DNA of 64,000 nt from Spizellomyces punctatus DAOM BR117 (taxonomy: Eukaryota): the NCBI GenBank assembly GCA_000182565.2, contig KQ257463.1, one strand, 5' to 3'. Below are positions 40,419-60,700 of this stretch, piece after piece. Made by a program: the position numbers and the translations under genes. The notes beneath the pieces are model-generated. The model saw only the letters and a list, made by a program, of their open reading frames with translations. It ran no database searches and was not told where the DNA came from. Each line of letters opens with the position of its first letter. Position 1 is the stretch's first letter.

Positions 40419-43191
40419 TCACTTTTCGGCGGGTGGTGCTCTGTGAACGCAAGGTATACAATGAGCTCTTTGTCTTTCAAAACAATAAACCTAATAGCAA
40501 AAGTGAAGAACAAAAACATACGTGAAAGAACCATCTGTGCAGTAGTAATCGAATTGCACACCTCCACGAATGTCAGGGTTCCAGGCCCAAACGGGAGCAT
40601 TGAGCTGCATGTTGGTCAAAACCGTAATGACGAGAATACATACTGCCGCGCCAGAGTCCAGCGCAACGGCCAATACATAGTTATACTTTTTCCACCAATC
40701 GTTTGCGTGTCGGAACAGGTAATATTGGAAGATGAATGCGGCGATGAGCGGCATGATATAGTGGTTCTGTAGACCGCCTGCACCAGAAAAGTATGCAATG
40801 AGGGGAATGTTGATATACATCCACCGGCGAGAAGGGTGTATCTTGTTTCCAAGCCACGGGAGGATGGGAAGGAGAAGACCGATCAGGAAGCACCAGAGGA
40901 GGGGACCGTAAATGGCGCCGATACCAAAGAAACGTTGAGGACCAATGGCACCCCAAATGGCACCTGCAGAGTAGAAAGTACGGTAGGAGAGGGCTTGCCA
41001 GTCACCTTTACCAATTTCCATGCTGGACATGACAAAGAAGGTTGCGATAGTGGAAACGATGGCGCCAACAAATGTGCCGTAGAACTGGGCGGCTAGCATG
41101 GCACGGGGAGCGATTTTCATGTAGTGACCGAGTTTGAGGTCGCCAAGAAGAGACATGGCTTGGATGGCTGTGTTGGTGCCGAGGGATTTGAAGGCCATGA
41201 CAGCGACTGTTCAGATGAGCACAGACGATTTAGGGCAAGGTCAAAAGTAAGTAAATGAAACGACCGCATCAGTACGTACCAGTCTTGCCTGGAATCATCA
41301 ACCCGATCACAAACTCAGTCAAAACGTTCAAGAACATTTGAGTTCCCGTAATTGCCAGAATTACGCCAATAGGTAGAATCATGATACCCGCCAGTCCAAT
41401 CGCAAGGAGAACAGCCCATATTGGCATTTCAAATGCTGAGAACTGGGCAACCAGGATCATTGCAATTGTCATAACGACGAGAATACCCAAGTAAACAATT
41501 TCCGGTACTTCGGGGTAAGCTTTCATGAGTTCGTTGTGAATATCGGTCTCTTGGCGGCCCGATCTGTTCATAATCTCTTTGATTTGTCGCCAGATGTCGC
41601 GACCGTACCAGAGGACAACGTGCGAAACGGTGGCAGCAACCGCCATGAAAGACGAGCCGTAATTGACTATTGCGTGCCAAAAATATGAAATAGGTTACAA
41701 AACGTGAACCAAATCCCGGAGAAGGACACAAGATGACGATACGTACGAGCAAATAGGGAGGTGATCCGCACAGGACCCAACTGCTGATATGCCGTCTCAT
41801 CCAAATCAAACGTTGTCTTATTGTACAACTTGAGCGGGCTCACAATGTTTCCGGTATTATCGAACAGCGACACAGAGTTCAATACAGGCAAGGTCATATT
41901 GTCCTGATCCCGCGCTCCTGTCGTCAGCTGCTGGTCCATGCCAAAAGCATTTGAATAAAAGACGATGGGAGTTAAGACCCACGTCCACAACCAGTTGGAG
42001 CCAATATAATTGAGAGTGGCCCAGAAAGGGGCTGTAAGGAAACCTCCGCCAATGTAGGTCCAGTCAAAGGAGAGCGCACCAATACCGATACCTCCGCCGT
42101 TATCGCTGGATCCAAGAAACCGTGCCTTTTTGTTGGTGGTGATGAGACAGAGGACACTGACGGTTTGCAGAACGACCATAAGGTACTCGGGTAGCCATGT
42201 GTATGCAAAGGCACCCGCAAAGGCAACGAGGAAAAACGTGAACCGAGACATTCTCCACCTGCTGCTCTTTGACAGCCTCTTTTCCTTTTCGGACCCGTGG
42301 AAACTGACAAAAAGCGCGATAAGCGACAACGTAGAAGGCCACATCATTTGTTTGGGCCAGACAACGAAACGGCGCATGATGCCTGCCAGGCCAAACCCGA
42401 TAAACTGGGATGCAAGAATCCAAGCAAATGATTCCCAAATGTTGATGGACTGGTTGCCCATGAAGAGTTCTGCCTTTTGAGTGACAACATTGTCAAGGCC
42501 GTAAGCCCCAGCGGCGCCGGCGCCAGCGATGATACTGATCAGAACGTGCTCTTTTTGGGAGAAGGGACCCGGATTGAGCGAGAAGGTCCATTTGTAGACC
42601 GTGACGGATTTATCAGGGAGTACTCTGGCAAGGAATTTTCCCATCGGGAAGGAAAGCAACTGTGCAAAAAATGTTTCAATCAGAATAAGGCCATCCCAAC
42701 TGTCAAAATCATCTTGTTGAAAATACATACGGTTGCGACAGTGGATGTGACGCCAAAAGGATTGGTACGGAAGGCGAGAATAGAATTGGCCCCACCAAGG
42801 AGGACACACCAAAGCGTACCAAGTACCATTACGCGAAAACTAAGCGAAAAGCAAACCGTCCAGAATAAATATACGGAAATTCGAAATAAACAAATGTGTG
42901 AGAACGATACCTGAAAGTAGGTGCACTCGGATCATCTGTAGTAGGCACCACGGCATTGATGGCTTTATCAACATCATCCTGAGTTTGAAACAGTAATATT
43001 TAACAACTAAACCTTTCCGTAAAAACAAATCCGAGAAAACACTATCGCACCTCTTCGACAAAGACATCGTCTTCATAGTCTTTGTCGTATTTTTCCTTCT
43101 TGTCGAGGCCCGGCAAAACATCCTCTCTCAAAGATGGAGGAAAGAGAGTTTTGTCTTTTTCAAATTCCTTTGAGTCACGCATGCTGGTCAT
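40419..43191 (-). CDS. OPT-family oligopeptide transporter
   Basis: NPGPFSQKEHVLI, VWPKQMMWPSTL, DIHNELMKAYPEVP, DLKLGHYMKIAPR, WGAIGP and WWKKYNYVLAVALDSG. Confidence 0.95.
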
Positions 43192-46603: not shown

Positions 46604-48708
46604 GGTTTAGACTTGTTGACATTTGTGTAGTTCGTTTCTTGTATTTTAAAAGGTTGGTGGGATATTGGGGTAGATTTGAGGACGGTATTTGTGTTTGCGT
46701 CATGTAGAATATATCCATACAGCAGTTTCAAATTGGAGCCCTTGTCTGCTTTCCCGTTTAGGGAACCTCAGTAGCCACAGTCAGGCATATTCATTTGTTT
46801 CTCTACCACCCCCTTGCGACAGCCATATCACCGCTCCTGATGTACAGAGCAGCTTCAGGGCGGAAGATGCGGACCTGGCTTTTTTGGGACTACAAACCGT
46901 GATAGGAAAGTGCGTCCAACGCAGTATCACTCTTTAAGATCCTGAGTAAGCGGGACCATCGACACCCTTGGTCTTTCACGAGTTTTAAGAACCGGAGAAG
47001 CCATCATTTGCGTCATGCTCTTTGTGAGATGCCCATGTAAGCTTAGCCACGTGGATATTGTATACTCGCAAGCTGAGAGGATGACACTTGAGGGAACGGT
47101 TGCACTCTTGTCTCTCGTTTGCTGTACTCTTGCACGTAGAGTCCATCCTCGCCACCTACCCAACATCCATGTCACAACCAAAACAATCAACATGGCCAAG
47201 TTCCTGTCATGAGACAAGCGACCCCGATATGGTGACATGTCCGTCCTTGGTGCATTCCCATCTGCATGCATTCTGCGAGGGAAACGACTATCGATGGGCC
47301 TTTATCCCCGACAGTGGATAATGAGGTTTGACCGTTCGGTGGCAAAGAATAGCACATGCTACCTCTCCCTCTCTCCACCAGCTCGATGGACACACACACG
47401 ACAGGAGCGTGCCAAGAAAAAAAAAATAATCTGGGACATGGCACCAAAAGAGTACGACAAAGAAACTCAATCATGTTTGAATTGTTGTTTTCCTTGTCGG
47501 CACAATAACCATTGTACAAGGCACTTGTTGCCTCTGGGTCATGCTTCTTTTGCGATCATGCTTTGAACTGCTCCATGGAAAGCATGTGGAATCTGCAAAA
47601 AAAGTCCAATCACTCTAGAGATTTCTCCTTTAATGATGAATCTTTTTTTGATTTTGCTAGACCCTTCTCACATGTCGTGGCTTTTGGGATAGGGACATGT
47701 TTGTCTTTAAGCTTTTGTTTTGTCCCGCCCATTGGTGATCTCTCCCAAAACTAGAAACTAAATAGGACTTGCTTACACATACGCGGCACTCGAGTTCCCC
47801 CCTTCAACTCCCCTATTGCCTTTAAAGATCATGGAGAACCCTCCAACCATGTGCCGAGGCCAAGACCACAGACGATGAAGGGCAAGGACATGTGCTAGTG
47901 GGTAACGACTCAAACATTGTCGCCTGCCGTGGTAAAAACGCTTTCTTTGCAATAGTTCAAAACGGAAGGGAAATGGCCGAAATACCCGCAACGGGAGGTC
48001 ACTAAAGGCCAAAAATGGGTCTTTCAACGTGCTGGCTGACCCCTCCGATCGCTTACATAAGCTGATCGCCACGTGCAAAGTGAGCCTTTAGGAAATTGTC
48101 ATCTATTGGAGGCTTGCCATTTGACACAAACTGCATTCGGGCTTGTTTTTTTTTGTAAACGATGAACAGATGATAACAAGGGTTTTGGATATGCTGATGC
48201 ATGGTTTTGTAAGAATGGTTGTTGCATTGGCGTTTGCATCGGCCGTCGGATGTAAATGGGGTTTCATCTAACAAGAGCTATTGCTAAAACCCAGGCAGAC
48301 TGCGCGTAACTAGTTAGATGTGTGCGGTTTGTCTCCCCCCCCCCCCCCCCCGTGCATAGCAAAAGACAAGAAAAGGAAATGGAAAACTGAACACCACAAG
48401 TGTTGAAGCGTCTTTTTTCCTTGTGTCAAATTTCAAAAGTCTCCCCCAAAAACTAGAAGATCATTTGTCTATCGCTCTCTGCTCTCGTGCATGCAGAACG
48501 CACGTTGCAGCTTCTTGTTTTTCTTTTAGAAACGACCAGCCAGCAACACAAACACACGCACTTTTGTTTTAGAGTTTTGTGTTTTCGACCATGGAAGTTC
48601 GCCTCATACGATATCAGTAAAGAGAGTGACATAAAGGTGATGCAAGGCCATCTGCCCCTTTCGCTCTTGTAAACGAACGTATATATTTAGCGATATAGTT
48701 TGTTACCC

Positions 48709-51700
48709 ATGTGGAGTTTGTTGGTGGTTCTGTGTTTGCTGCTGTGTTCTGTGGAAGGAGGTGGTGAGTGTCACTTCGGTTGGGCCACGGCTGTGTGATG
48801 GAACACTGAGCAAAGATCTCCTACAGTCGTCATTGAAGGTGGTGGTGCATCGTTTCCAGCTACATTATATCAGAAATGGATGGACGAATTCACCAACAAG
48901 TATGGTAAGCACACCATCCTTGTCGACATGGATCCAGGTCTTTGTGGATGGCTCAATCGACTCGATACTTCTTGCCCCTTTAGCAACCTACCTCTCTGGC
49001 ATACACTACACACCCTCCAGCAGCACCAATGGCGTCAAGCTCCTTACTTCCGGATCCATCAACTTTGCCGGCTCCGACATCCCACCAGAATCGTCGGATC
49101 CGTCCATTGTCTACTTTCCCTCCGTTGCTGGCGCCATCGCCATCGCATACAATATCCCCGGCCTAGCAGCCCCGCTTACGCTTACCCGACAGAACATTGC
49201 GGATATATTTAGCGGACGGGTAACAACCTGGGCGGATGCGAGCTTGCAAGCCAGGAACCCCGGTTTGGGCCCTGCGTTGGCGGGAAAAACACCACCACCG
49301 CGGATTCAACTCGTGGTGCGAAAACCGGGATCCGGCACCACAGGCAATTTCGTGGCTGCTTTGCATTCGTTTGATTCGAGTTTTCCTGGACCGATCAGTG
49401 GTAATTTTTTCCTCGTTCATGTTGCATTCCATTTCTTGCATTGTGGCTCATCAGAATACGTTATTGTTAGCCAATCTTGATTGGAGCACCTTGAGCAATA
49501 TTACCGGTGCGCTGGTCGCCAGCACCAATGGTGCCGTCGGAATCCTTGTTTCCTCTCTTCCTTATGCGGTATCGTACATGGATTTAACAGAAGTGACTAC
49601 TTCGGCGAACAACGGGGGTCAAGTAGGTGTAGCTAATGTGATCAATAAGAATGGTGATACAGTATTGCCGAGTACCACTTCGCTGCAGGTAAGGTGAAAG
49701 GTAGTCATTGATCGGGATAATTCACAACATTGACAGAATGCTTGGGTTGGCGGCTTTCCTTTTATAGGCGGCCATGTCCATCGAACGCTCCCTCGATCCC
49801 AGCGAGCTGAATAAGAATGTGATCGATTCGGCCAGCCCTGGTGCATATCCTATGACAGTGTTTACATACATTGTCTTGAGAAACAAGTTCATCGCAAATG
49901 ATACTGCGACAGCGCGGTGGACGCTGAGGTACTTGTATTGGACGTTGACGAACGGAGGGGTATGTACTGCAAACATATTTGCAATGTAGTATCGTGCCAG
50001 CATCGTGCTGATCCAAACGCAACCACTCTATAGTCCACTGCCATAGCAAACCAATTTGCTCCGCTGAGTCCCGCTTTATCCCAATACTCTCTTACCCAAC
50101 TACAGTCTATCACAAATGGAAACCAAAGCCTGTACGGGCAATCTCTTTGCGACTTTCCGCCGGGACATCCCAAAGGCTGCGTCAACGGCGCCTGCTTCCT
50201 GGACCTCCCTTTCCAAGATGCTAAAGCGCAATGCATCTGTACATCGGGCCACATCAATGTTGATAAGAGCGATTGCTCCGAATCCGTGCGTGTCTATCGC
50301 GTAGCCCGAGACGATGCATTTGGAATTACGTCCCTGGTACTAATGTTGATTGGATGGGCTATCGTTGGAGGAATTTGGGCCGTGGTATTTTGGTGCAGAC
50401 ATCGACCACAAATCAAAGCCATTTCACCGGCGTGTTGTTGGGTGTTACTGGCAGGATGTATGGTAGGACTGTGCGGAATCCTGCCCTATGCAGGGATCCC
50501 CACGTATGCAATGTGTCGCCTGCGGGTATTTTTTCCCCCAGTTGCTTTTGGAATGGGTTTCGGGTAAGTGAAGGCTTGTGCGGAGTTATTCAGACCTCGC
50601 TACTTTATTGACGCTTCGTCTCTAATAGAATGATGCTCATGAAGCTCTGGCGTATTTACCTCATATTTGAACACCAACGCAACTACTTTCGCTTGAGTAT
50701 CGGACTCGGGGATCGCAAATCCCGTGTGTCATTTGCGCGGAACTCTCACCTAATGATCGGCACACTGCTCATTGTCCTCGTCGAATTCCTCCTCGCGGGT
50801 GCTTGGGTTATAGTCACCTCCCCTTACGTCGAAACTCATCTCGATGACTCTGCAACCGGCAAAGTCCATGCGGAATGCACGGTGGAACCTAGCAAAAAAG
50901 CCCTAGACACCTTGTTGACATCCGTTCTCTACGTCTTTAACGCTGGACTCTTGATTGCCTGTCTTTTGATGGCTTTCCACACCCGTCGAGCCTACAAACG
51001 ATTCCGGGAGAGCAAGACAATGGGATTTTGCATCTACATTGTGGGCGTTTTGATGATTTTTGGTCTACCGGTCTTGTACGCCATTCCCGCCAAAGAGGAA
51101 ACGACCATAGGAATTCGCAAGTTGGTAACTTGCATCATCATCTTTTGTTCCTCGACTGGTGTCGCATTACTGTTATTTGTTCCGAGGCTCATTGAGACGT
51201 TTAATGGCGATGATTTGAATGTAGACAAGTATTCACTAGAGCCGCGGGGGAGTAGTGCGCGAGATGTGATGGTGTCAAGTGCTCCAAGCACTTACGGGGC
51301 CGGGTCCTCTGTGCAGCCTGGGTCTTCGACACCCATCTGCATGGACGTAACAGTTCGAAAAGACAATGTGGATGCAACATGGGTGCCGTCTCTCCTCTGT
51401 ATTATTCCCCACGTCGACCTCCTCCTCTTTCTTGCCAACGACAATGTCCTCCTCTCATTTAAAATGAGTGACGTCCGGTATGAAGTCCTTCAAATCCGGC
51501 CTGCTGTCGTACCCAATCCCGTCAAGAGATTCTCGGCCGGGGAAACTGGTAGTAAAGTCAAATCTCGTATTATGCTCTACCAAAACACGGAGCGGTGGAC
51601 GGCTTGTATGGTGGAATTTAAAAGTGGGACGGGATTGCAGCAGTTGATGTCCTTGTTGGGAGATGTAGGGAAGGAAGGTGATATATCGAATGGGACAGTG

Positions 51701-51721
51701 GTCGATGAGGTGACTGTTTAA
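48709..51721 (+). CDS. Class C-type 7TM receptor with N-terminal PstS-like phosphate-binding domain and EGF-like linker
   Basis: Signal peptide; GGGASFPATLYQKW, FAGSD, RKPGSGTT and GAYPMTVFTYIVL (PstS); Cys-rich linker; IKAISP, KLWRIYLIF, FRESKTMGFCIY and LFVPRL (7tm_3). Confidence 0.88.
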
Positions 51722-52164
51722 AAGAGGTGACCGCAATGTGGGCAGTTGTGGTTGAGATATGTAGATACCCCCCTCCTTTATTGTCTTGTCAAGGCAGTGA
51801 ATTTTGCTTTTTCGACAAATGGTGCATTTTTCTTTTGGTTGCTGGGATTTCTTCCAGCTATGATTCGTTTTTCTTTGTAGAGTAGGCACGTTTTTTTTTT
51901 TCACTTTTCTGCATTTATTAGAGAATAGCATCTCTTGAAACTTCTCGCATATTTTCAATATACTAGTTGTGCGTGAGTGTTGGGTACGTCCATCCACCCT
52001 TTGAGATATACAAGGTGCCAAAAACGCCTATGGAATTTTACAAGTTGAAAATGGGTATCCTGCTATGTACAAACCAACCTATATGAAGAATGAAAGAAAA
52101 TATCTACAGAATCGTTTGGGTTTTTTTTGTATGCCACCACCATTTGTACCTCCCCCCATCATCC

Positions 52165-53052
52165 TCACTTTTTCGCTGCCCTTTTTCTTTTCTCAACTGC
52201 CACATGCCTTTTCAACGCATCGCTCCTCGCAAATGTCAAGTCACAATGCGGACATTCAAAAGGCTTGCGTCCCACCGTGTGCAAGGATACTTTGTGACGT
52301 AGAAAATCGTGCTTACGAGCAAATGCCAAAGGGCACTGTGGACATTTGAAGGGGCGAGTATGAGAGTGGGCTCCGCGGATGTGCGCGAGGAGGTTGTAGC
52401 GGCGTGTAAAGCTTTTCGGGCATGCTGAGCAGGGGTGCCGCCGTAGGGGGAGATTTGAAGGTTGTTCAGTGCGTGATGTGGATGTGGGTGTCTGTTTTTG
52501 TATGGGTGACATGATGCTGACGTTTGTCGCTGAGCGTTCGTGTTGCTTTTGATCTTCTCGTTCCATGGGTTTCTTTAATACAGGTTGGACCAAGGTGTTC
52601 AGCATGAACAAGTCCAGATCGCTCATTGACGGACTGGTCATGAGAGGATCTTCTGTCGCTGTGAGACTTTGCGGAGTGAGCGGAAATTCCACCGGTGCGC
52701 CAAGAGGACTCGAAGAAGGAAACTCGACCGAAAAGTTCGACATGTCCGTCTCATCCTCCGTTAGAAAGGCGCTTTGAGGGGTTGGTGGCATACCGTCTAC
52801 CACAATTTCCGGTACAGGTACCTCATCAAAAAATGAATACTCTTGGCATGGTGGACTCGAAAACGCTTCGTAGCCTGTCAACATTAAACGATTGTCCATA
52901 TAGGGTGGGGACTGAAGAGAGGTGGGAAGGGGTGAAGGGGCTAGGAGAAGCATGGTAGCCGGATCGAGATAGCCGTCCATGACAGTCATTTCCTGCGGAT
53001 AAAGGTCTAGCAGGGGGTAGGTGGCTGTCGGATATGCTGAAAAGTACGCCAT
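52165..53052 (-). CDS. C2H2 zinc-finger transcription factor (3 fingers)
   Basis: CSACPKSFTRRYNLLAH, RPFKCPQC..F...DFLRH and KPFECPHCDLTFARSDALKRH, with an acidic/Pro-rich N-terminus. Confidence 0.92.
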   Translation of the reverse strand: MAYFSAYPTATYPLLDLYPQEMTVMDGYLDPATMLLLAPSPLPTSLQSPPYMDNRLMLTGYEAFSSPPCQEYSFFDEVPVPEIVVDGMPPTPQSAFLTEDETDMSNFSVEFPSSSPLGAPVEFPLTPQSLTATEDPLMTSPSMSDLDLFMLNTLVQPVLKKPMEREDQKQHERSATNVSIMSPIQKQTPTSTSRTEQPSNLPLRRHPCSACPKSFTRRYNLLAHIRGAHSHTRPFKCPQCPLAFARKHDFLRHKVSLHTVGRKPFECPHCDLTFARSDALKRHVAVEKRKRAAKK

Positions 53053-54680
53053 GGAATATACTGTGCGTTTGTTTTAATGAAAGTTGTCTTGACGATTTTC
53101 AGGCATAAAAAAGAAAGCGAACACAAAAGAGCTAACCATGCGTGTGCAGTTATCTTTATACTCGTGCGCTGGAATACCCCGGAGTAGAGGCTGACGATTA
53201 CAAAGAAGAAGCCTGTCAAACCTCACACCCTCCTCATACGCCGAGAGTTCAGCCAAAAAAAAAAAAAAAAAAACCGACGAAAGGTATTTCTGGCGGTCGA
53301 TGACAAACTCATGTCGCTCGACTTGTCCCAACCATGTGAAGAGCAAAAAAACGACACGGTTCGCTGCCCTTTTACCGCAAGGGACTACGAGTGCGGTAGG
53401 GCTTTGGAATGAAGGAATGGACAACGGGGCTTCTTGGATGCGCTGGCATAAAGCCTCGTGGGTGAGTCATTGGAAGAAGGAGCAAAAAGGGCTTTTGTTG
53501 TGGGGTGACTTTGGGTCGCTGCAACCGGCGATTCAATCGTGCTTGCAGTGTTGCTGCTGCTGCACTGGCCAACAGGGGAAACTGTTCAGATGATTTACAA
53601 TTTGTGCTTTAGCTCACCGATTTCATTTTCCATCATTCCGATGGACATTTTCGTTATTTCGCCAGGAAAACTCTACCATCTTGCTTGGGCGGGATGAGTC
53701 CGTAGGGAATCACGGCTGGGTTCTTGGATTATGTAATCGACCGTCAGTGACCTGGAGTTTTGCGCAGCTGTTGCCGTCACCGCCTTTGGCTGCAGGTCGT
53801 GACCGGAGCTGTCAATTTCATGCACTGCCATGCAGCTTTTTTTAGCAATCCCAAAGCAAAGTGAGACCGATGCTTACTACGGCGCTGTTGGGTAAAAGTC
53901 GTGCACCTGCCATTGGAGAGATTGTAACGCTGGGTCGCGCTGGAATAGATCGTTCTACTAGGGACTTGCATGGACTCTGAAATTTCAGATATTGGCCGGA
54001 AGCGGAAGGAAAGCTTTTTGTATCATATGTAATGCACGGAGACAACGAATGTGTTTATCTGGATCTTGGTTGCATACATTTACCACATTGATTGGGGGAC
54101 CCTCCAGGGCATCCCAACAGGACAAAGTCTCCCTTCCCATTCTCAGAACGCACACGACTCAGCTATTACAGGCATAACTTGCTTGGAATGGGCGTCCATC
54201 GATGCTCACATTAAAAGCATTCGCGTTACCATTGGCCAATTGTGCGCGCAAATAGGATATCACACAAAACAAGCATTCTCCTCTGCATGATACTAACAAG
54301 ATTTAGCAACGACAGCAATTGACAGGATTGGATAAAGATGTGGCATATTAAATGAGGTTACAAGGCAGAGGAAGGCCGCAGATATCCATTTACAAACGAT
54401 AATTCTCAATTTCTCGACTTTTATAAGCTCAATTTTAGTTTTGCTTGCAATAGCACCTTCAATTTGTTGATGAATTCTTGCATTCTTGAATCGGTATCTG
54501 AATCCGACTTTCCCTTCTATCCGTCGGCATGCGATCCCAAATGTCAAATGTCAAATTCCTCCTTCCTACGCACGTGATTATCGGGCCTTGCGTAATCCTC
54601 AGCCTTGCCTTCCTGCTGCCCAGCCATTGTCATCTCCGATCGTGGCGCCCCAGAAAACTGTGCTAACGCATCACAGCCCA

Positions 54681-57707: not shown

Positions 57708-60700
57708 ATGTATCTGCCTCAAGCCCTCGTCTTTTTATTATTCCACGCAAATCACCTCATAAGAGCCCAAAGCCCTCCAACCATAAAAATTGGGGTCATC
57801 CTTCCTGTCGACAGCGATGGTTGGGGAATTACGATTAAAGACACCATTCACTGGCGCCTGGATCAGTATACCAATAACAGCTTTGCCAGAAATGCAACAT
57901 TTGAGCTTGTGGCAGCGGTAAACCAAGTGGGTACGCAGAGTGCTGCCCTCGAGCTGGCCTACGAGATGGTTTATGAAAAAGCGGTGAATGCATTGATAGG
58001 TGAGTGATTCGCGGGGCGGTTGATATTTGAATTGATAGTTTTTACCAAGTTCTGACTGGCGGATTTCACAATGCAGGTATGGCCTCTTCGCCGTTGACAT
58101 CCCTCCTTGCACTGGTGGCTGCTGGCAAAAGGTAAAATAATCTTCTGTAGTGATGTGCATGCAAAGTTATCTAACAAACTTGATATTTCCCATCATAGAA
58201 TCCCGCACTGCGATGGCGTCAGTACAGCTATGTCTCTCGGCAACAAAGCTACCTACCCAACCTTCTTTCGTACCACCCCATCAGACGAATATGACGCTAT
58301 CACTATTGCTCAATTTATTTTTGCCCAAGGATGGCGCCAAGTTACCATCTTGGCTTCCACACAGGAATACGGCACATCGGTTTCTGAAGAACTCCTTGCA
58401 CAATGTACCCTGTATGGGATCAAGGTCCTTTCTCTCGTATTGTTTGACCCAGATGACTGTGAAACGGAGTGGGTGCAAACTATATCAGTGCTCAAGTCAT
58501 CTGGTGCGACGATATTCGTGTATGTCGGAGGTGGGAAGGACTTTATGACTGCAACGGACGAAGCGATGCGGCAGGGGATTTTCTCAAAGGATTATGTTTG
58601 GATTGGAGCGGGGGCAGTAATGGAGATAACTTGGTCGGACCTTGATACGGAGCTCGTACGACTACGGGATGGGACTTTCTTGCCGTTTCCGACAGAGTAC
58701 CCGGATAAGGCTCTTCAGACCAAGTTGGAGAACGAGTGGGCACAAGCCGATAAGGTCTTGTATCCGGCTTCAGCACGCCCTGTCGTCGATGGGGCAGGGT
58801 GAGTTGACACCTCGTCTTGTTGGCTATTTCCTGACAAGGTTGCAAAAACTGATTTCCAATTAGGTTTTACCTGGACTGCGCAGATCTCCTGATCCATGGC
58901 TGGAAAAAGGTAAACTGCTTAACCTTGCTCATGCGCACATTCTCGAAGCTAACGCTATCCTTTGTGAACAATCAAGCTCATTGATGACAATCCCGAACAA
59001 TTCAACTGGTCCTCCATCGCATCCAATCAGCTCGTCCAAAACTATACTTTCCGCTGCGATACAAATAATGATGCAGCAGTGGACTGCACTCCAACATTTC
59101 TAATAAACCAAACCAGTGTGACGAGCGTGATGAACTTTAATCCCATTACCGGGGACCGAATCGCGCAGTTCGTATAATGACTTGTTGTTTTTATGATTTG
59201 ATATGTCCTAATGTTTTTGCAAATAGATATTACAGCTGGTATCAACTCCGAGGGGGACATTTTAATACCTTGGTCGGGTACTGGAATAATGGACAAACCG
59301 TGATATACGAGGACCAGATCGTGTATGCCGGAAACTCCACCAAAAAGCCGTACGACCGACACGTGTGTACGTATTCCACATTGAACTGTCAACTTTGATC
59401 CGGATTTGACCTTGTGGTATGATAGCCTTTATAGGATACGGAACCGCAGGCGCATGGACGATCATCGCCACGACCGGGGCACTACTCCTCATCACCATTG
59501 CAACCGCAATCTTGTACTTTGTTTACAGAAGCGAAAACTATATTAGGGCTAGTTCGTGGATGTTTTCTGAGCTTATATTGGCGGGGGTGGCGATAGGTAG
59601 GTCGTCCAAGTTGTGGTCTGACTTTCACGTGTGCTGATGTGTTTGGAAAAAGGGTACGCATCGGTTCCTACTTTTATTGGGGATCCAGAGCACGCAGGGC
59701 GTTGTATCGGACAGATTTGGATGGTTGGGATGGCGTTCATCATGGTGAGTTTACAACGAGAGAGATTCCGCCTTCATTTGCTCAAATGCTGGTGTCATTG
59801 ACCAGGTGTTTGGAAACTTGGTTGCAAAGACCGGTCGGACGTGGATGGTGAGTGTCATTTATTATCTACATGGGAGCTTTGACTGGAAAGGTCTCATCGT
59901 CGCCGGCGTATCTAGCTTTTCCAGCGTTCCGAAGCGGGGCTAGTACCCAACTCCCCGATAACCGACTCTCAACTTCTCCGTCCGGCTGGCCTCCTCATTG
60001 GCATTCAAATTCTTATTTTGGGTCTATGGACAGGTTTCGATCAACCGCGGCAATTTATTGATTTTCCTCGAGCTACCAGATACTGCCAGTCCCAAGGGAC
60101 TACATTCAAGGCTGTCCTTTTCGCATACGATTCTGTTATTATATTTGCTGGTGTGGTGTTTGCGTTGCGAACGAAGGAGGTGGCCAAGAAGTTCAGGGAT
60201 AGTGCGAGCATTGGGCTGTCGGTGAGTTGTTGATCTTCGCATTACTCCCCGACTATGCGCCTTAACAACCCTTTCAGATTTACACAATTGCGCTGATCCT
60301 CTGCGTTCTGCTTCCCATTGTAAGTCTGGCTGCAGACCCTGTCATGTCCTGGGTATCTTTGGTAGTAGCGATCATCATATGCCCGAGCGCTATTCTCGTG
60401 TTTCTCTTCCTGCCTAAAATCTGGATTCTCTATCAACACAAAGTCAGAGGGATTGAACCCAGCAGGAAACGACATCGACGATTCCGCACCATAAATGCTA
60501 TGCTACAAACCAATCCCCTTGGCCCTCCCACAAATGACAGCAGGGTCCCAGGAGTGCGCGGCACATGTGACTCTGAACAGAAGGATGGGCCACTTCCTTT
60601 GGAGGTTCAAAACAGTGAAAGTTGGGGCTACGCAGACATTGCAAGCTTCTTTCGGGGTGTGTTTTCACCTGATGTACATACCCTCACGAGATGGAGATCC

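What the first reader, a model, noticed from the sequence alone, without database searches (positions are those of the whole stretch)
48709..51721. Candidate extracellular phosphate-sensing GPCR: PstS-type binding domain fused to a class C 7TM
Seen: the spliced gene reads signal peptide, PstS-like domain, Cys-rich EGF-like linker, class C 7TM and cytoplasmic tail. Established: canonical class C receptors use a type I Venus-flytrap domain, whereas PstS is the type II solute-binding protein of bacterial phosphate ABC transporters. Phosphate-contacting motifs of E. coli PstS (GATFP, S38, GASD/D56, RADGSGTS) appear here as GASFP, SSSTNG, AGSD and RKPGSGTT, so they are mostly intact, but the D137-equivalent is Pro. 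Solute-binding-protein/7TM fusions are known in early-diverging fungi in general. Inference: this is a receptor for phosphate or a related oxyanion/phosphoester, possibly used in zoospore chemotaxis, with an ectodomain of bacterial or ancient origin.
Basis: partly seen in the sequence, partly recalled or inferred. Interest (0 to 1): 0.85.

Follow-up and report, generated by a model that had tools for sequence, protein, structure and literature searches.

The report
Chytrid PstS-type class C receptor gene
A chytrid fungus gene encodes a surface receptor whose outer sensor is a bacterial-type phosphate-binding domain with its phosphate contacts intact, joined to a glutamate-receptor-type seven-helix membrane domain; the design was catalogued in 2012, but its likely role as an external phosphate sensor has never been tested.

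Summary
Window 48709-51721 (+) is one 7-exon gene. Its spliced product matches SPPG_09437 of Spizellomyces punctatus DAOM BR117 letter for letter (860 aa).

It reads:
- signal peptide;
- PstS-type domain (Pfam PBP_like_2 2.8e-26; PDB PstS 3e-24; NCBIfam hits PstS models only);
- conserved 6-Cys stalk;
- class C 7TM (7tm_3 5.8e-42);
- about 170-aa tail with a probable PH-like fold.

One uninterrupted exon carries the end of the PstS domain, the stalk and TM1-3, so the fusion does not depend on splicing.

All eight phosphate-contact positions of E. coli PstS are kept; only the Asp137 salt-link partner is Pro. The same architecture occurs in 40 of 67 scanned relatives: 12 chytrid genera, an aphelid, Calcarisporiella, Plasmodiophora and a pelagophyte.

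The best reading is an extracellular orthophosphate-sensing class C GPCR (confidence 0.55).

A PBP_like_2 class C receptor of S. punctatus was already listed by Krishnan et al. 2012, without any mention of phosphate. Zoospore chemotaxis is unsupported.

This scan earlier noted giant-virus relatives that had lost the phosphate contacts.

The parts
48709..48763 (+). Exon 1: start codon and signal peptide (residues 1-18, plus the first base of codon 19)
   Evidence: hydrophobic peak centred on residues 10-17; the spliced model equals P0151.
48827..48904 (+). Exon 2: start of the PstS-type domain. It holds S27 and F28 (codons 48850-48855), the equivalents of E. coli PstS T10 and F11.
   Evidence: alignment to PstS structures (2z22, 1ixh). 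for the exon borders.
48984..49400 (+). Exon 3: core of the PstS-type domain. It holds S58 (49022-49024), D76 (49076-49078), R157 (49319-49321), P159 (49325-49327) and S161-G162-T163 (49331-49339).
   Evidence: PBP_like_2 1.2e-16. alignment. Codon positions read.
49471..49688 (+). Exon 4: PstS-type domain, second lobe
   Evidence: alignment runs through residues 184-256.
49768..49959 (+). Exon 5: PstS-type domain
50034..50563 (+). Exon 6, one uninterrupted reading frame. It holds the last residues of the PstS-type domain (to about residue 345, 50108), the 6-Cys stalk (residues 359-401, 50148-50276) and TM1-TM3 (from residue 413, 50310).
   Evidence: ORF 50034-50567; 7tm_3 1.4e-10. PstS alignments reach residues 332-346; cysteine conservation.
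50629..51721 (+). Exon 7: the end of TM3 through TM7 (to residue 683, 51187), the cytoplasmic tail with a PH-like fold (residues about 729-845, 51323-51673) and the stop codon (51719-51721).
   Evidence: 7tm_3 1e-25; alignment to mGluR3; structural look-alikes of the Atlas model are PH domains.
48764..50628 (+). Span holding the six introns: 48764-48826, 48905-48983, 49401-49470, 49689-49767, 49960-50033 and 50564-50628. All are GT..AG and 63-79 nt long.
   Evidence: Five of the six junctions are the same in the gene model of the sister species (P0001).
51722..51908 (+). Probable 3' untranslated region
   Evidence: RNA run X7 has mean depth about 10 over 51546-51787 and 3.5 over 51788-51908. 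No junction reads were seen.

Best explanation
The gene encodes a plasma-membrane class C (glutamate-type) G-protein-coupled receptor. In place of the usual type I Venus-flytrap, its ligand-binding module is a PstS-type (type II) phosphate-binding domain.

Proposed mechanism:
1. The signal peptide is removed and the two-lobed domain (residues about 19-345) faces outward.
2. The domain closes on one orthophosphate ion, held by S27, F28, S58, D76, R157, S161, G162 and T163. D76, the equivalent of E. coli Asp56, favours protonated oxyanions (phosphate, and less well arsenate) over sulfate.
3. The closure is passed through a rigid, disulfide-bonded 6-Cys stalk (359-401) to the 7TM domain (413-683).
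4. The 7TM domain activates a heterotrimeric G protein.
5. A cytoplasmic tail with a PH-like fold (about 729-845) probably tethers or recruits effectors.

The likely role is sensing external phosphate supply to steer growth or behaviour.

Shown here: the gene structure, the domain identities, conservation of the contact residues, and conservation of the fusion across many eukaryotes.

Inferred: phosphate binding, transmission of the closure, G-protein coupling, dimerisation and the biological role.
For: Single gene:
- The spliced model matches the annotated protein letter for letter.
- One uninterrupted exon (50034-50563) holds the PstS C-terminus, the stalk and TM1-3.
- PF12849 and PF00003 occur together in 31 of the top 39 phmmer hits and in 9 of 28 further picked hits.
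- Three unnamed fused relatives sit on contigs barely longer than their coding length: 860 aa on 2955 nt, 1115 aa on 3589 nt, 667 aa on 2081 nt.

PstS identity:
- PDB PstS chains match at 3e-24 to 1e-21 over residues 21-346.
- NCBIfam reports only PstS models; the best is TIGR00975 at 2.9e-48 over profile positions 1-313 of 315.
- The ESM Atlas model has TM 0.77-0.86 to phosphate-binding-protein clusters over about 320 residues.
- Stand-alone look-alikes carry the name phosphate ABC transporter binding protein.

Pocket:
- All eight contact positions are kept in this protein.
- 18 of 40 fused relatives keep all eight. Six are cut gene models, and most of the other 16 differ by one conservative or backbone-contact change.

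7TM competence:
- C481 is kept in 29 of 30 fused rows and C580 in 28 of 30 (the rest are gaps). K502 is kept in 23 of 24, R505 in 25 of 25 and E624 in 26 of 28.
- C580, the 'ESK' motif and the TM7 'PR' align with the ECL2 Cys, 'EAK' and 'PK' of mGluR3.

G proteins: chytrids carry four G-alpha paralogues (de Mendoza 2014, PMC3971589, passages read).

Constraint: the sister-species orthologue is 89-98% identical in every region.
Against: - There are no binding or signalling data for any member. Searches found none.
- The TIGR00975 score (164.6 bits) is below NCBI's equivalog cut-off of 205.
- The Asp137 salt-link partner of the key Arg is Pro here, and is never Asp in the 29-row core chytrid clade. 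From memory, E. coli Asp137 mutants still bind phosphate.
- The TM6 Trp of mGluR3 aligns with Met here.
- The ectodomain has no cysteine before the stalk, so an mGluR-style disulfide-linked dimer of the sensor domains is not possible.
- RNA reads cover only the 3' end and show no splice junctions.
- The Atlas model is of modest confidence (pTM 0.45, mean pLDDT 0.68).
Confidence: 0.55

Rival explanations
1. Same receptor, different ligand. The PstS-type pocket has been retuned to arsenate, phosphite, pyrophosphate, a small phosphoester or another anion, so the receptor does not report orthophosphate.
For: - Asp137 is lost in all 29 rows of the core chytrid clade.
- The score is below the PstS equivalog cut-off.
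- The family has many paralogues per species, for example three in Polychytrium.
- One subclade (P0024, P0028, P0035, P0038) has lost Arg135 and other contacts, so ligand divergence does occur within the family.
Against: - This protein keeps all eight direct contacts, including the Asp56 equivalent.
- NCBIfam hit only PstS models, and no phosphonate- or sulfate-binding family.
- From memory, the PstS pocket encloses the ion completely, which leaves little room for esters.
Confidence: 0.2
2. The ectodomain binds phosphate, but the output does not go through heterotrimeric G proteins. The 7TM domain and the PH-like tail would act as a scaffold, a 'transceptor'-like sensor or an endocytic phosphate-capture protein.
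For: - A PH-like fold of about 115 residues in the tail is unusual for class C receptors. It aligns in 24 of 30 fused relatives.
- The TM6 Trp of mGluR3 is Met here.
- PstS-type ectodomains are also wired to guanylate cyclase/kinase modules and to a weak, below-threshold TRP-type region in other eukaryotes, so the sensor is output-agnostic.
Against: - The TM3 Lys, the TM6-base Glu, the TM3-ECL2 cysteine pair and the TM7 Pro-Arg are conserved across the family.
- Chytrids have G-alpha subunits.
Confidence: 0.15
3. The receptor is specifically the phosphate chemotaxis receptor of zoospores.
For: Most holders are zoosporic (12 chytrid genera, an aphelid and Plasmodiophora). Chytrid zoospores are chemotactic to nutrients (abstract of PMC12115818 in the listing).
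Against: - No paper found reports phosphate chemotaxis of chytrid zoospores. PMC3261367 mentions phosphate only as a nutrient.
- The receptor type is present in Calcarisporiella thermophila, which has no zoospores (own knowledge).
- No stage-specific expression data could be obtained.
Confidence: 0.12
4. Annotation artefact: two neighbouring genes, a secreted PstS-like protein and a 7TM receptor, were merged by gene prediction.
For: No RNA read spanning a junction was recovered. Some relatives are clearly mis-merged or cut models: P0014 with a GH47 domain, P0023 with a homeodomain, and P0001 lacking its 5' end.
Against: - Exon 6 is one open frame from the PstS C-terminus through TM3.
- There is no stop codon or start context between the halves.
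- The architecture recurs in 40 of 67 scanned relatives from 16 named genera, and on three short contigs with essentially one continuous ORF.
Confidence: 0.02

Closest known systems
Bacterial PstS, the periplasmic phosphate-binding protein of the PstSCAB ABC importer (E. coli 1IXH, Yersinia pestis 2Z22)
   Same: - Same fold family: PF12849, TIGR00975 at 2.9e-48, and PDB E-values of 3e-24 to 2e-22 over the whole domain.
- All eight phosphate-contact positions are kept.
   Different: - About 30% identity, and a score below the equivalog cut-off.
- The Asp137 salt-link residue is Pro.
- The domain is not a free periplasmic protein that docks on PstCA. It is covalently tethered through a Cys-rich stalk to a 7TM domain in a eukaryote.
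Metazoan class C GPCRs (mGluR, GABA-B, CaSR)
   Same: - 7tm_3 domain at 5.8e-42; PDB mGluR and GABA-B chains at about 1e-12.
- The ECL2 Cys, the 'E-x-K' at the TM6 base and the TM7 Pro-basic motif align.
- General layout: a large sensor domain, then a Cys-rich stalk, then the 7TM domain.
- CaSR is reported to sense phosphate as a non-competitive antagonist at anion sites (PMC6795806, abstract read).
   Different: - The sensor is a type II PstS domain, not the type I ANF_receptor flytrap.
- The stalk has 6 cysteines and gives no NCD3G match.
- The sensor has no cysteine for an inter-subunit disulfide.
- The tail has a PH-like fold.
- In CaSR, phosphate is a modulator at surface anion sites, not the cleft ligand.
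Catalogued fungal class C GPCRs with type II solute-binding ectodomains (Krishnan et al. 2012, PMC3251606; Seppala et al. 2016, PMC5168858)
   Same: This is exactly that kind. Krishnan et al. list PBP_like_2 (PF12849) in S. punctatus SPPG_06488, together with LysR_substrate, OpuAC and SBP_bac_1 types. In the gut-fungal receptors, about half carry type II domains and some carry EGF-like modules.
   Different: - Those papers list Pfam or InterPro domains only. The word 'phosphate' occurs 0 times in either main text.
- The gut-fungal type II domains resemble sugar-binding proteins.
- I could not show that SPPG_06488 and SPPG_09437 are the same gene, because supplements are closed and no genome is held.
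Yeast Pho84 phosphate transceptor and the Gpr1 glucose GPCR
   Same: Functional analogy only: external nutrient sensing that feeds PKA signalling (abstracts of PMC7780724 and PMC7850899 in the listing).
   Different: There is no sequence relationship. Pho84 is a transporter that also signals, and Gpr1 is not class C and has no binding-protein ectodomain.
Giant-virus PstS-like class C receptors noted earlier in this scan (e1-5773653, e1-5773664)
   Same: The same PBP_like_2 + 7tm_3 layout. Those notes name chytrid and amoebozoan receptors as their closest cellular relatives.
   Different: By those unchecked notes, the viral copies have lost the phosphate contacts. The chytrid gene keeps all eight.

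Membership tests
PstS / PBP_like_2 phosphate-binding protein family | Match to the family profile above its curated threshold | tested here: met
   Pfam PF12849: 93.3 bits against a gathering score of 27, residues 19-315, profile positions 8-263 of 267.
PstS / PBP_like_2 phosphate-binding protein family | Reaches NCBI's equivalog cut-off for PstS, meaning the same function as the transporter subunit | tested here: not met
   TIGR00975: 164.6 bits against a cut-off of 205. NF008171: 96.8 bits against 339. The protein is homologous, but not an equivalog.
PstS / PBP_like_2 phosphate-binding protein family | Phosphate-contact residues (E. coli T10, F11, S38, D56, R135, S139, G140, T141; numbering recalled) | tested here: met
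   The equivalents are S27, F28, S58, D76, R157, S161, G162 and T163 in the alignments. The Asp137 salt-link residue is Pro159.
PstS / PBP_like_2 phosphate-binding protein family | Two-lobed type II binding-protein fold | tested here: inconclusive
   The ESM Atlas model has TM 0.77-0.86 to phosphate-binding-protein clusters over 317-321 residues. That model has modest overall confidence.
PstS / PBP_like_2 phosphate-binding protein family | Works with PstC/PstA/PstB ABC transporter subunits | not testable with these tools
   No whole genome is held for this window. The covalent link to a 7TM domain makes a transporter role unlikely (inference).
PstS / PBP_like_2 phosphate-binding protein family | Binds orthophosphate | not testable with these tools
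   This needs ITC or thermal shift on the expressed ectodomain.
Class C (glutamate-type) GPCR | 7tm_3 profile match over the whole seven-helix domain | tested here: met
   PF00003: 144.5 bits against 33.5, residues 413-683, profile positions 4-251 of 251. PDB mGluR and GABA-B chains match at about 1e-12.
Class C (glutamate-type) GPCR | Conserved TM3-ECL2 cysteine pair, TM3 Lys, TM6-base Glu and TM7 Pro-Lys motif (features recalled) | tested here: met
   C481, C580, K502 and E624 are kept in 23-29 of the 24-30 fused rows that have a residue there. C580, 'ESK' and 'PR' align to the Cys, 'EAK' and 'PK' of mGluR3, but the TM6 Trp aligns to Met.
Class C (glutamate-type) GPCR | Type I Venus-flytrap (ANF_receptor) ligand-binding domain | tested here: not met
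   There is no ANF_receptor hit; PBP_like_2 is found instead. A neighbouring gene at 58098-60230 does have ANF_receptor + 7tm_3.
Class C (glutamate-type) GPCR | Nine-cysteine NCD3G domain between sensor and 7TM | tested here: not met
   There is no NCD3G hit. A conserved 6-Cys module takes its place. Krishnan 2012 reports NCD3G absent from all non-metazoan members.
Class C (glutamate-type) GPCR | Obligate dimer | not tested
The sensor domain holds no cysteine.
Class C (glutamate-type) GPCR | Couples to heterotrimeric G proteins | not testable with these tools
   The only support is indirect: chytrids have G-alpha paralogues (PMC3971589).
EGF-like domain (stalk) | Six cysteines in EGF spacing, plus a profile match | tested here: inconclusive
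   The spacing C-x9-C-x4-C-x12-C-x-C-x11-C fits the EGF pattern as I recall it, and the cysteines are kept in 28-30 of 30 rows. Pfam gives only EGF_Tenascin at E 0.028 over 8 residues. The Atlas cluster's automatic name includes 'EGF-like'.
PH domain (cytoplasmic tail) | PH-type beta-sandwich with a C-terminal helix | tested here: inconclusive
   Residues 725-852 of the Atlas model have TM 0.54-0.61 to clusters carrying PH, PH_TFIIH, PH_10 and PH_SNAP47 domains. No Pfam PH hit appeared even at E <= 10.

The most novel reading that the evidence does not exclude
PstS-type ectodomains are an old, eukaryote-wide, dedicated sensor module for extracellular orthophosphate, plugged into different outputs:
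- class C 7TM domains in chytrids, aphelids, Calcarisporiella, Plasmodiophora and a pelagophyte;
- kinase-like plus guanylate-cyclase modules in Fabomonas and a scallop;
- a cyclase in Entosiphon;
- a four-domain array with an Ephrin_rec_like domain and a weak TRP-type region in Chromosphaera.

On this reading, SPPG_09437 would be the first tractable example of a true phosphate GPCR. S. punctatus can be transformed (own knowledge), so the question of how eukaryotic cells sense external phosphate would become directly testable.
Probability: 0.4. Interest if true: 0.8.

Novelty: new member of a known kind. Interest (0 to 1): 0.5.

Why it matters
How eukaryotic cells sense external phosphate is poorly understood. 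Yeast uses a transporter that also signals, and in mammals CaSR is only modulated by phosphate at surface anion sites.

A receptor whose cleft is a complete PstS phosphate pocket wired to a GPCR would be a dedicated phosphate receptor. It would also come with a ready-made prediction of ligand, contact residues and mutants.

The family is broad (fungi, Rhizaria, stramenopiles), and the same sensor sits on cyclase receptors, including one in an animal. A positive binding result would therefore generalise widely.

It also shows that class C receptors can be driven by a type II binding protein. This bears on how ligand-induced closure is transmitted to the 7TM domain, and on biosensor design.

Tried and rejected
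- RNA support for one transcript. The look-up of sequencing runs listed no RNA holder. Laying the one raw RNA run of the same species label (X7, about 6% of it read) gave 99 reads, nearly all at the 3' end, and no joints. Runs X1-X3 are DNA, since their contigs run through the introns. Splice junctions therefore remain unconfirmed by RNA.
The retries were made after the stated wait.
- Complex prediction for an ectodomain homodimer was unavailable.
- No whole genome is held for the window. Paralogue counts, G-protein genes and the identity of SPPG_06488 could not be checked.
- The word-indexed homologue searches returned only the sister-species protein. The exhaustive HMMER search was needed.
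- Pho4-type E-boxes upstream. CACGTG at 48070 and CACGTT at 48501 looked suggestive, but CACGTK occurs 51 times in the window against 58.06 expected. This is chance level and was dropped.
- Recent tandem duplication with the neighbouring ANF-type class C gene. The 7TM pieces are only 21% identical. Rejected.
- DING-protein kinship. No DING entry appeared among the 60 PDB rows shown, of 65 matched. Not pursued.
- Supplements of Krishnan 2012 and de Mendoza 2014, which may list this gene and architecture, are closed and were not seen.
Full report
**Observation**

The region 48709-51721 on the + strand holds one gene of seven exons: 48709-48763, 48827-48904, 48984-49400, 49471-49688, 49768-49959, 50034-50563 and 50629-51721. 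The six introns are 63-79 nt long and all GT..AG. They give an open 2583-nt coding sequence.

The 860-residue product matches database protein P0151 letter for letter. P0151 is 'uncharacterized protein SPPG_09437', Spizellomyces punctatus DAOM BR117.

The sister species' protein P0001 (Spizellomyces sp. 'palustris') is 93-94% identical and uses the same five downstream junctions. Its model starts at an internal Met, so it lacks the signal peptide and the first contact motif.

**Domains**

Single exons already give the families:
- exon 3: PBP_like_2, 1.2e-16;
- exon 6: 7tm_3, profile positions 4-85, 1.4e-10;
- exon 7: 7tm_3, profile positions 90-251, 1e-25;
- three short exon pieces: nothing significant.

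The whole protein gives 7tm_3 at 5.8e-42 (residues 413-683) and PBP_like_2 at 2.8e-26 (residues 19-315).

Against solved structures:
- residues 21-346 match PstS phosphate-binding proteins (2z22 at 3.2e-24, 1ixh at 2.3e-22, M. tuberculosis PstS-1 at about 1e-22);
- residues 395-700 match mGluR and GABA-B chains at about 1e-12.

NCBIfam reports PstS models only. TIGR00975 scores 2.9e-48 over profile positions 1-313 of 315, but its 164.6 bits fall below the equivalog cut-off of 205.

The ESM Atlas model of this same protein has TM 0.77-0.86 to bacterial and archaeal phosphate-binding-protein clusters over about 320 residues. Its overall confidence is modest (pTM 0.45).

**Is it one protein?**

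Yes, and the evidence does not rest on splicing:
- Exon 6 is a single open frame. It holds the last residues of the PstS fold (the PDB alignments run to residues 332-346, and exon 6 starts at residue 321), the Cys-rich stalk and TM1-TM3.
- The exhaustive HMMER search found 53 representatives at E <= 1e-30.
- PF12849 and PF00003 occur together in 31 of the top 39 hits. The 8 others are fragments or other architectures. They also occur together in 9 of 28 further hits that I picked for length or tree position.
- Three unnamed fused relatives lie on contigs that leave at most 375, 244 and 80 nt beyond their coding length.

RNA evidence is weak. One raw RNA run of the same species label covers only the 3' end (mean depth about 10 over 51546-51787) and shows no joints. 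The other three runs are DNA.

**Phosphate pocket**

I mapped the HMMER alignments onto the E. coli PstS numbering, which is recalled. The equivalents are:

| E. coli PstS | This protein |
|---|---|
| T10 | S27 |
| F11 | F28 |
| S38 | S58 |
| D56 | D76 |
| R135 | R157 |
| S139 | S161 |
| G140 | G162 |
| T141 | T163 |
| D137 (salt link to R135) | P159 |

All eight direct contacts are thus kept, or conservatively Ser for Thr.

Among 40 fused relatives:
- 18 keep all eight contacts;
- 6 are cut at the N-terminus;
- 16 have at least one change, mostly T141S/A/G or F11L, which is a backbone contact;
- one small clade (P0024, P0028, P0035, P0038) has lost the Arg and more.

Asp137 is never Asp in the 29-row core chytrid clade. 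It is Asp in most other eukaryotic and bacterial rows.

From memory, Asp137 mutants of E. coli PstS still bind phosphate, and Asp56 is what excludes sulfate. On that basis the pocket argues for orthophosphate, with arsenate as a weaker mimic, and against sulfate.

**Stalk, 7TM and tail**

- Stalk: the six cysteines (359, 369, 374, 387, 389, 401) are kept in 28-30 of 30 fused rows. The sensor domain itself has no cysteine. The spacing fits an EGF-like module, but Pfam does not confirm it (E 0.028). There is no NCD3G hit.
- 7TM: C481 and C580 (TM3 top and ECL2), K502, R505 and E624 are conserved. In the alignment to mGluR3, C580, 'ESK' and TM7 'PR' face the ECL2 Cys, 'EAK' and 'PK'. The TM6 Trp faces Met.
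- Tail: the Atlas model of residues 725-852 resembles PH domains (TM 0.54-0.61 to clusters with PH, PH_TFIIH, PH_10 and PH_SNAP47), and it resembles the tail of a 50-member chytrid PBP_like_2 + 7tm_3 cluster.
- The tail region aligns in 24 of 30 fused rows, with low identity. Pfam finds no PH domain, so the PH-like fold is a lead only.

**Distribution and origin**

Named holders of the fused architecture are:
- 12 chytrid genera: Spizellomyces, Borealophlyctis, Rhizophlyctis, Nowakowskiella, Cladochytrium, Phlyctochytrium, Polychytrium, Chytriomyces, Rhizoclosmatium, Dinochytrium, Blyttiomyces and Gorgonomyces;
- the aphelid Amoeboaphelidium;
- Calcarisporiella thermophila;
- Plasmodiophora brassicae;
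- the pelagophyte Chrysophaeum taylorii.

Related PstS-type ectodomains sit on other outputs:
- kinase-like plus guanylate-cyclase modules in Fabomonas and in the scallop Argopecten;
- a cyclase in Entosiphon;
- a four-domain array with an Ephrin_rec_like domain and a weak TRP-type hit in Chromosphaera.

Most of these keep the contact residues.

In a 70-row quick maximum-likelihood tree, the 21 stand-alone PstS-length proteins form one side of a 99% SH-aLRT branch. Six of them carry bacterial PstS names. All 49 eukaryotic receptor domains lie on the other side. The window's protein sits in a 29-row chytrid clade (99%). An earlier 91-row tree agrees.

This fits an old eukaryotic receptor-type PstS lineage rather than a recent bacterial transfer. 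The tree is unrooted, it has long branches, and the bacterial sample is small.

**What is in print**

- Krishnan et al. 2012 (PMC3251606; passages read) count 14 Glutamate-family receptors in S. punctatus. They list 'PBP_like_2 (PF12849) domain (in SPPG_06488)' beside LysR_substrate, OpuAC and SBP_bac_1 types. 'Phosphate' occurs 0 times in the main text.
- Seppala et al. 2016 (PMC5168858; passages read) describe gut-fungal class C receptors with type II, sugar-type domains and EGF-like modules. 'Phosphate' again occurs 0 times.
- De Mendoza et al. 2014 (PMC3971589; passages read) note conserved non-ANF architectures and four G-alpha paralogues in fungi, including chytrids.
- SPPG_09437 itself occurs in no held paper.
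- The searches found no paper that links a PstS-type GPCR to phosphate sensing.
- The supplements that may list this gene are closed.
- This scan had noted giant-virus relatives that, by those unchecked notes, have lost the phosphate contacts.

**Verdict**

The architecture is a catalogued kind, and is most probably the very gene listed in 2012 under an older tag, although I could not show that.

- the full phosphate pocket is conserved;
- the fusion is old and widespread;
- the same sensor is wired to other outputs;
- the tail may carry a PH-like fold.

The phosphate-sensing GPCR reading is the best-supported mechanism (confidence 0.55), but it rests entirely on sequence. The zoospore-chemotaxis idea has no support.

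Noticed in passing
window 58098-60230 (+): About 6.4 kb downstream on the same strand lies a second class C receptor gene with the canonical sensor. ANF_receptor scores 8.9e-19 at 58098-58799. 7tm_3 pieces lie at 59410-59634 (6.8e-07) and 59916-60230 (1.6e-14). Its 7TM piece is only 21% identical to SPPG_09437, so the two are not a recent tandem pair.
   Followed up: partly
P0058, P0083, P0079, P0029, P0057, P0063 (proteins): PstS-type ectodomains are fused to outputs other than 7TM domains. P0058 (Fabomonas) and P0083 (the scallop Argopecten irradians, named 'retinal guanylyl cyclase 2-like') carry a kinase-like plus guanylate-cyclase module. P0079 (Entosiphon) carries a cyclase. P0029 (Chromosphaera perkinsii) has four tandem domains with an Ephrin_rec_like domain and a TRP-type hit just below Pfam's threshold (27.7 bits against 28.5). 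P0063 carries an ANF_receptor domain. Most keep the phosphate contacts.
   Followed up: partly
P0052, P0067, P0070 (non-fungal fused receptors): The Plasmodiophora receptor, the Chrysophaeum receptor and one unnamed receptor carry two or three tandem PstS-type domains ahead of the 7TM domain. The chytrid receptors carry only one.
   Followed up: no
P0024, P0028, P0035, P0038 (a chytrid subclade, 99% support): These paralogues have lost the Arg135 equivalent and up to four more contact positions, so they probably no longer bind phosphate.
   Followed up: no
P0001, P0014, P0023 (public gene models of relatives): These models look mis-annotated. P0001 starts at an internal Met and lacks the signal peptide and the first contact motif. 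P0014 carries an N-terminal GH47 domain, and P0023 a homeodomain, so both look like merged neighbouring genes.
   Followed up: no
window 52165-53073 (-): A C2H2 zinc-finger protein gene converges on the receptor's 3' end (zf-C2H2 3.3e-16). RNA reads of the opposite orientation rise at 51909-52000.
   Followed up: no
window 40491-42839 (-): An OPT oligopeptide transporter gene lies here in two large exon ORFs (1.1e-36 and 6e-64).
   Followed up: no
window 48335-48351: A run of 17 C lies about 360 nt upstream of the start codon. Its meaning is unknown.
   Followed up: no
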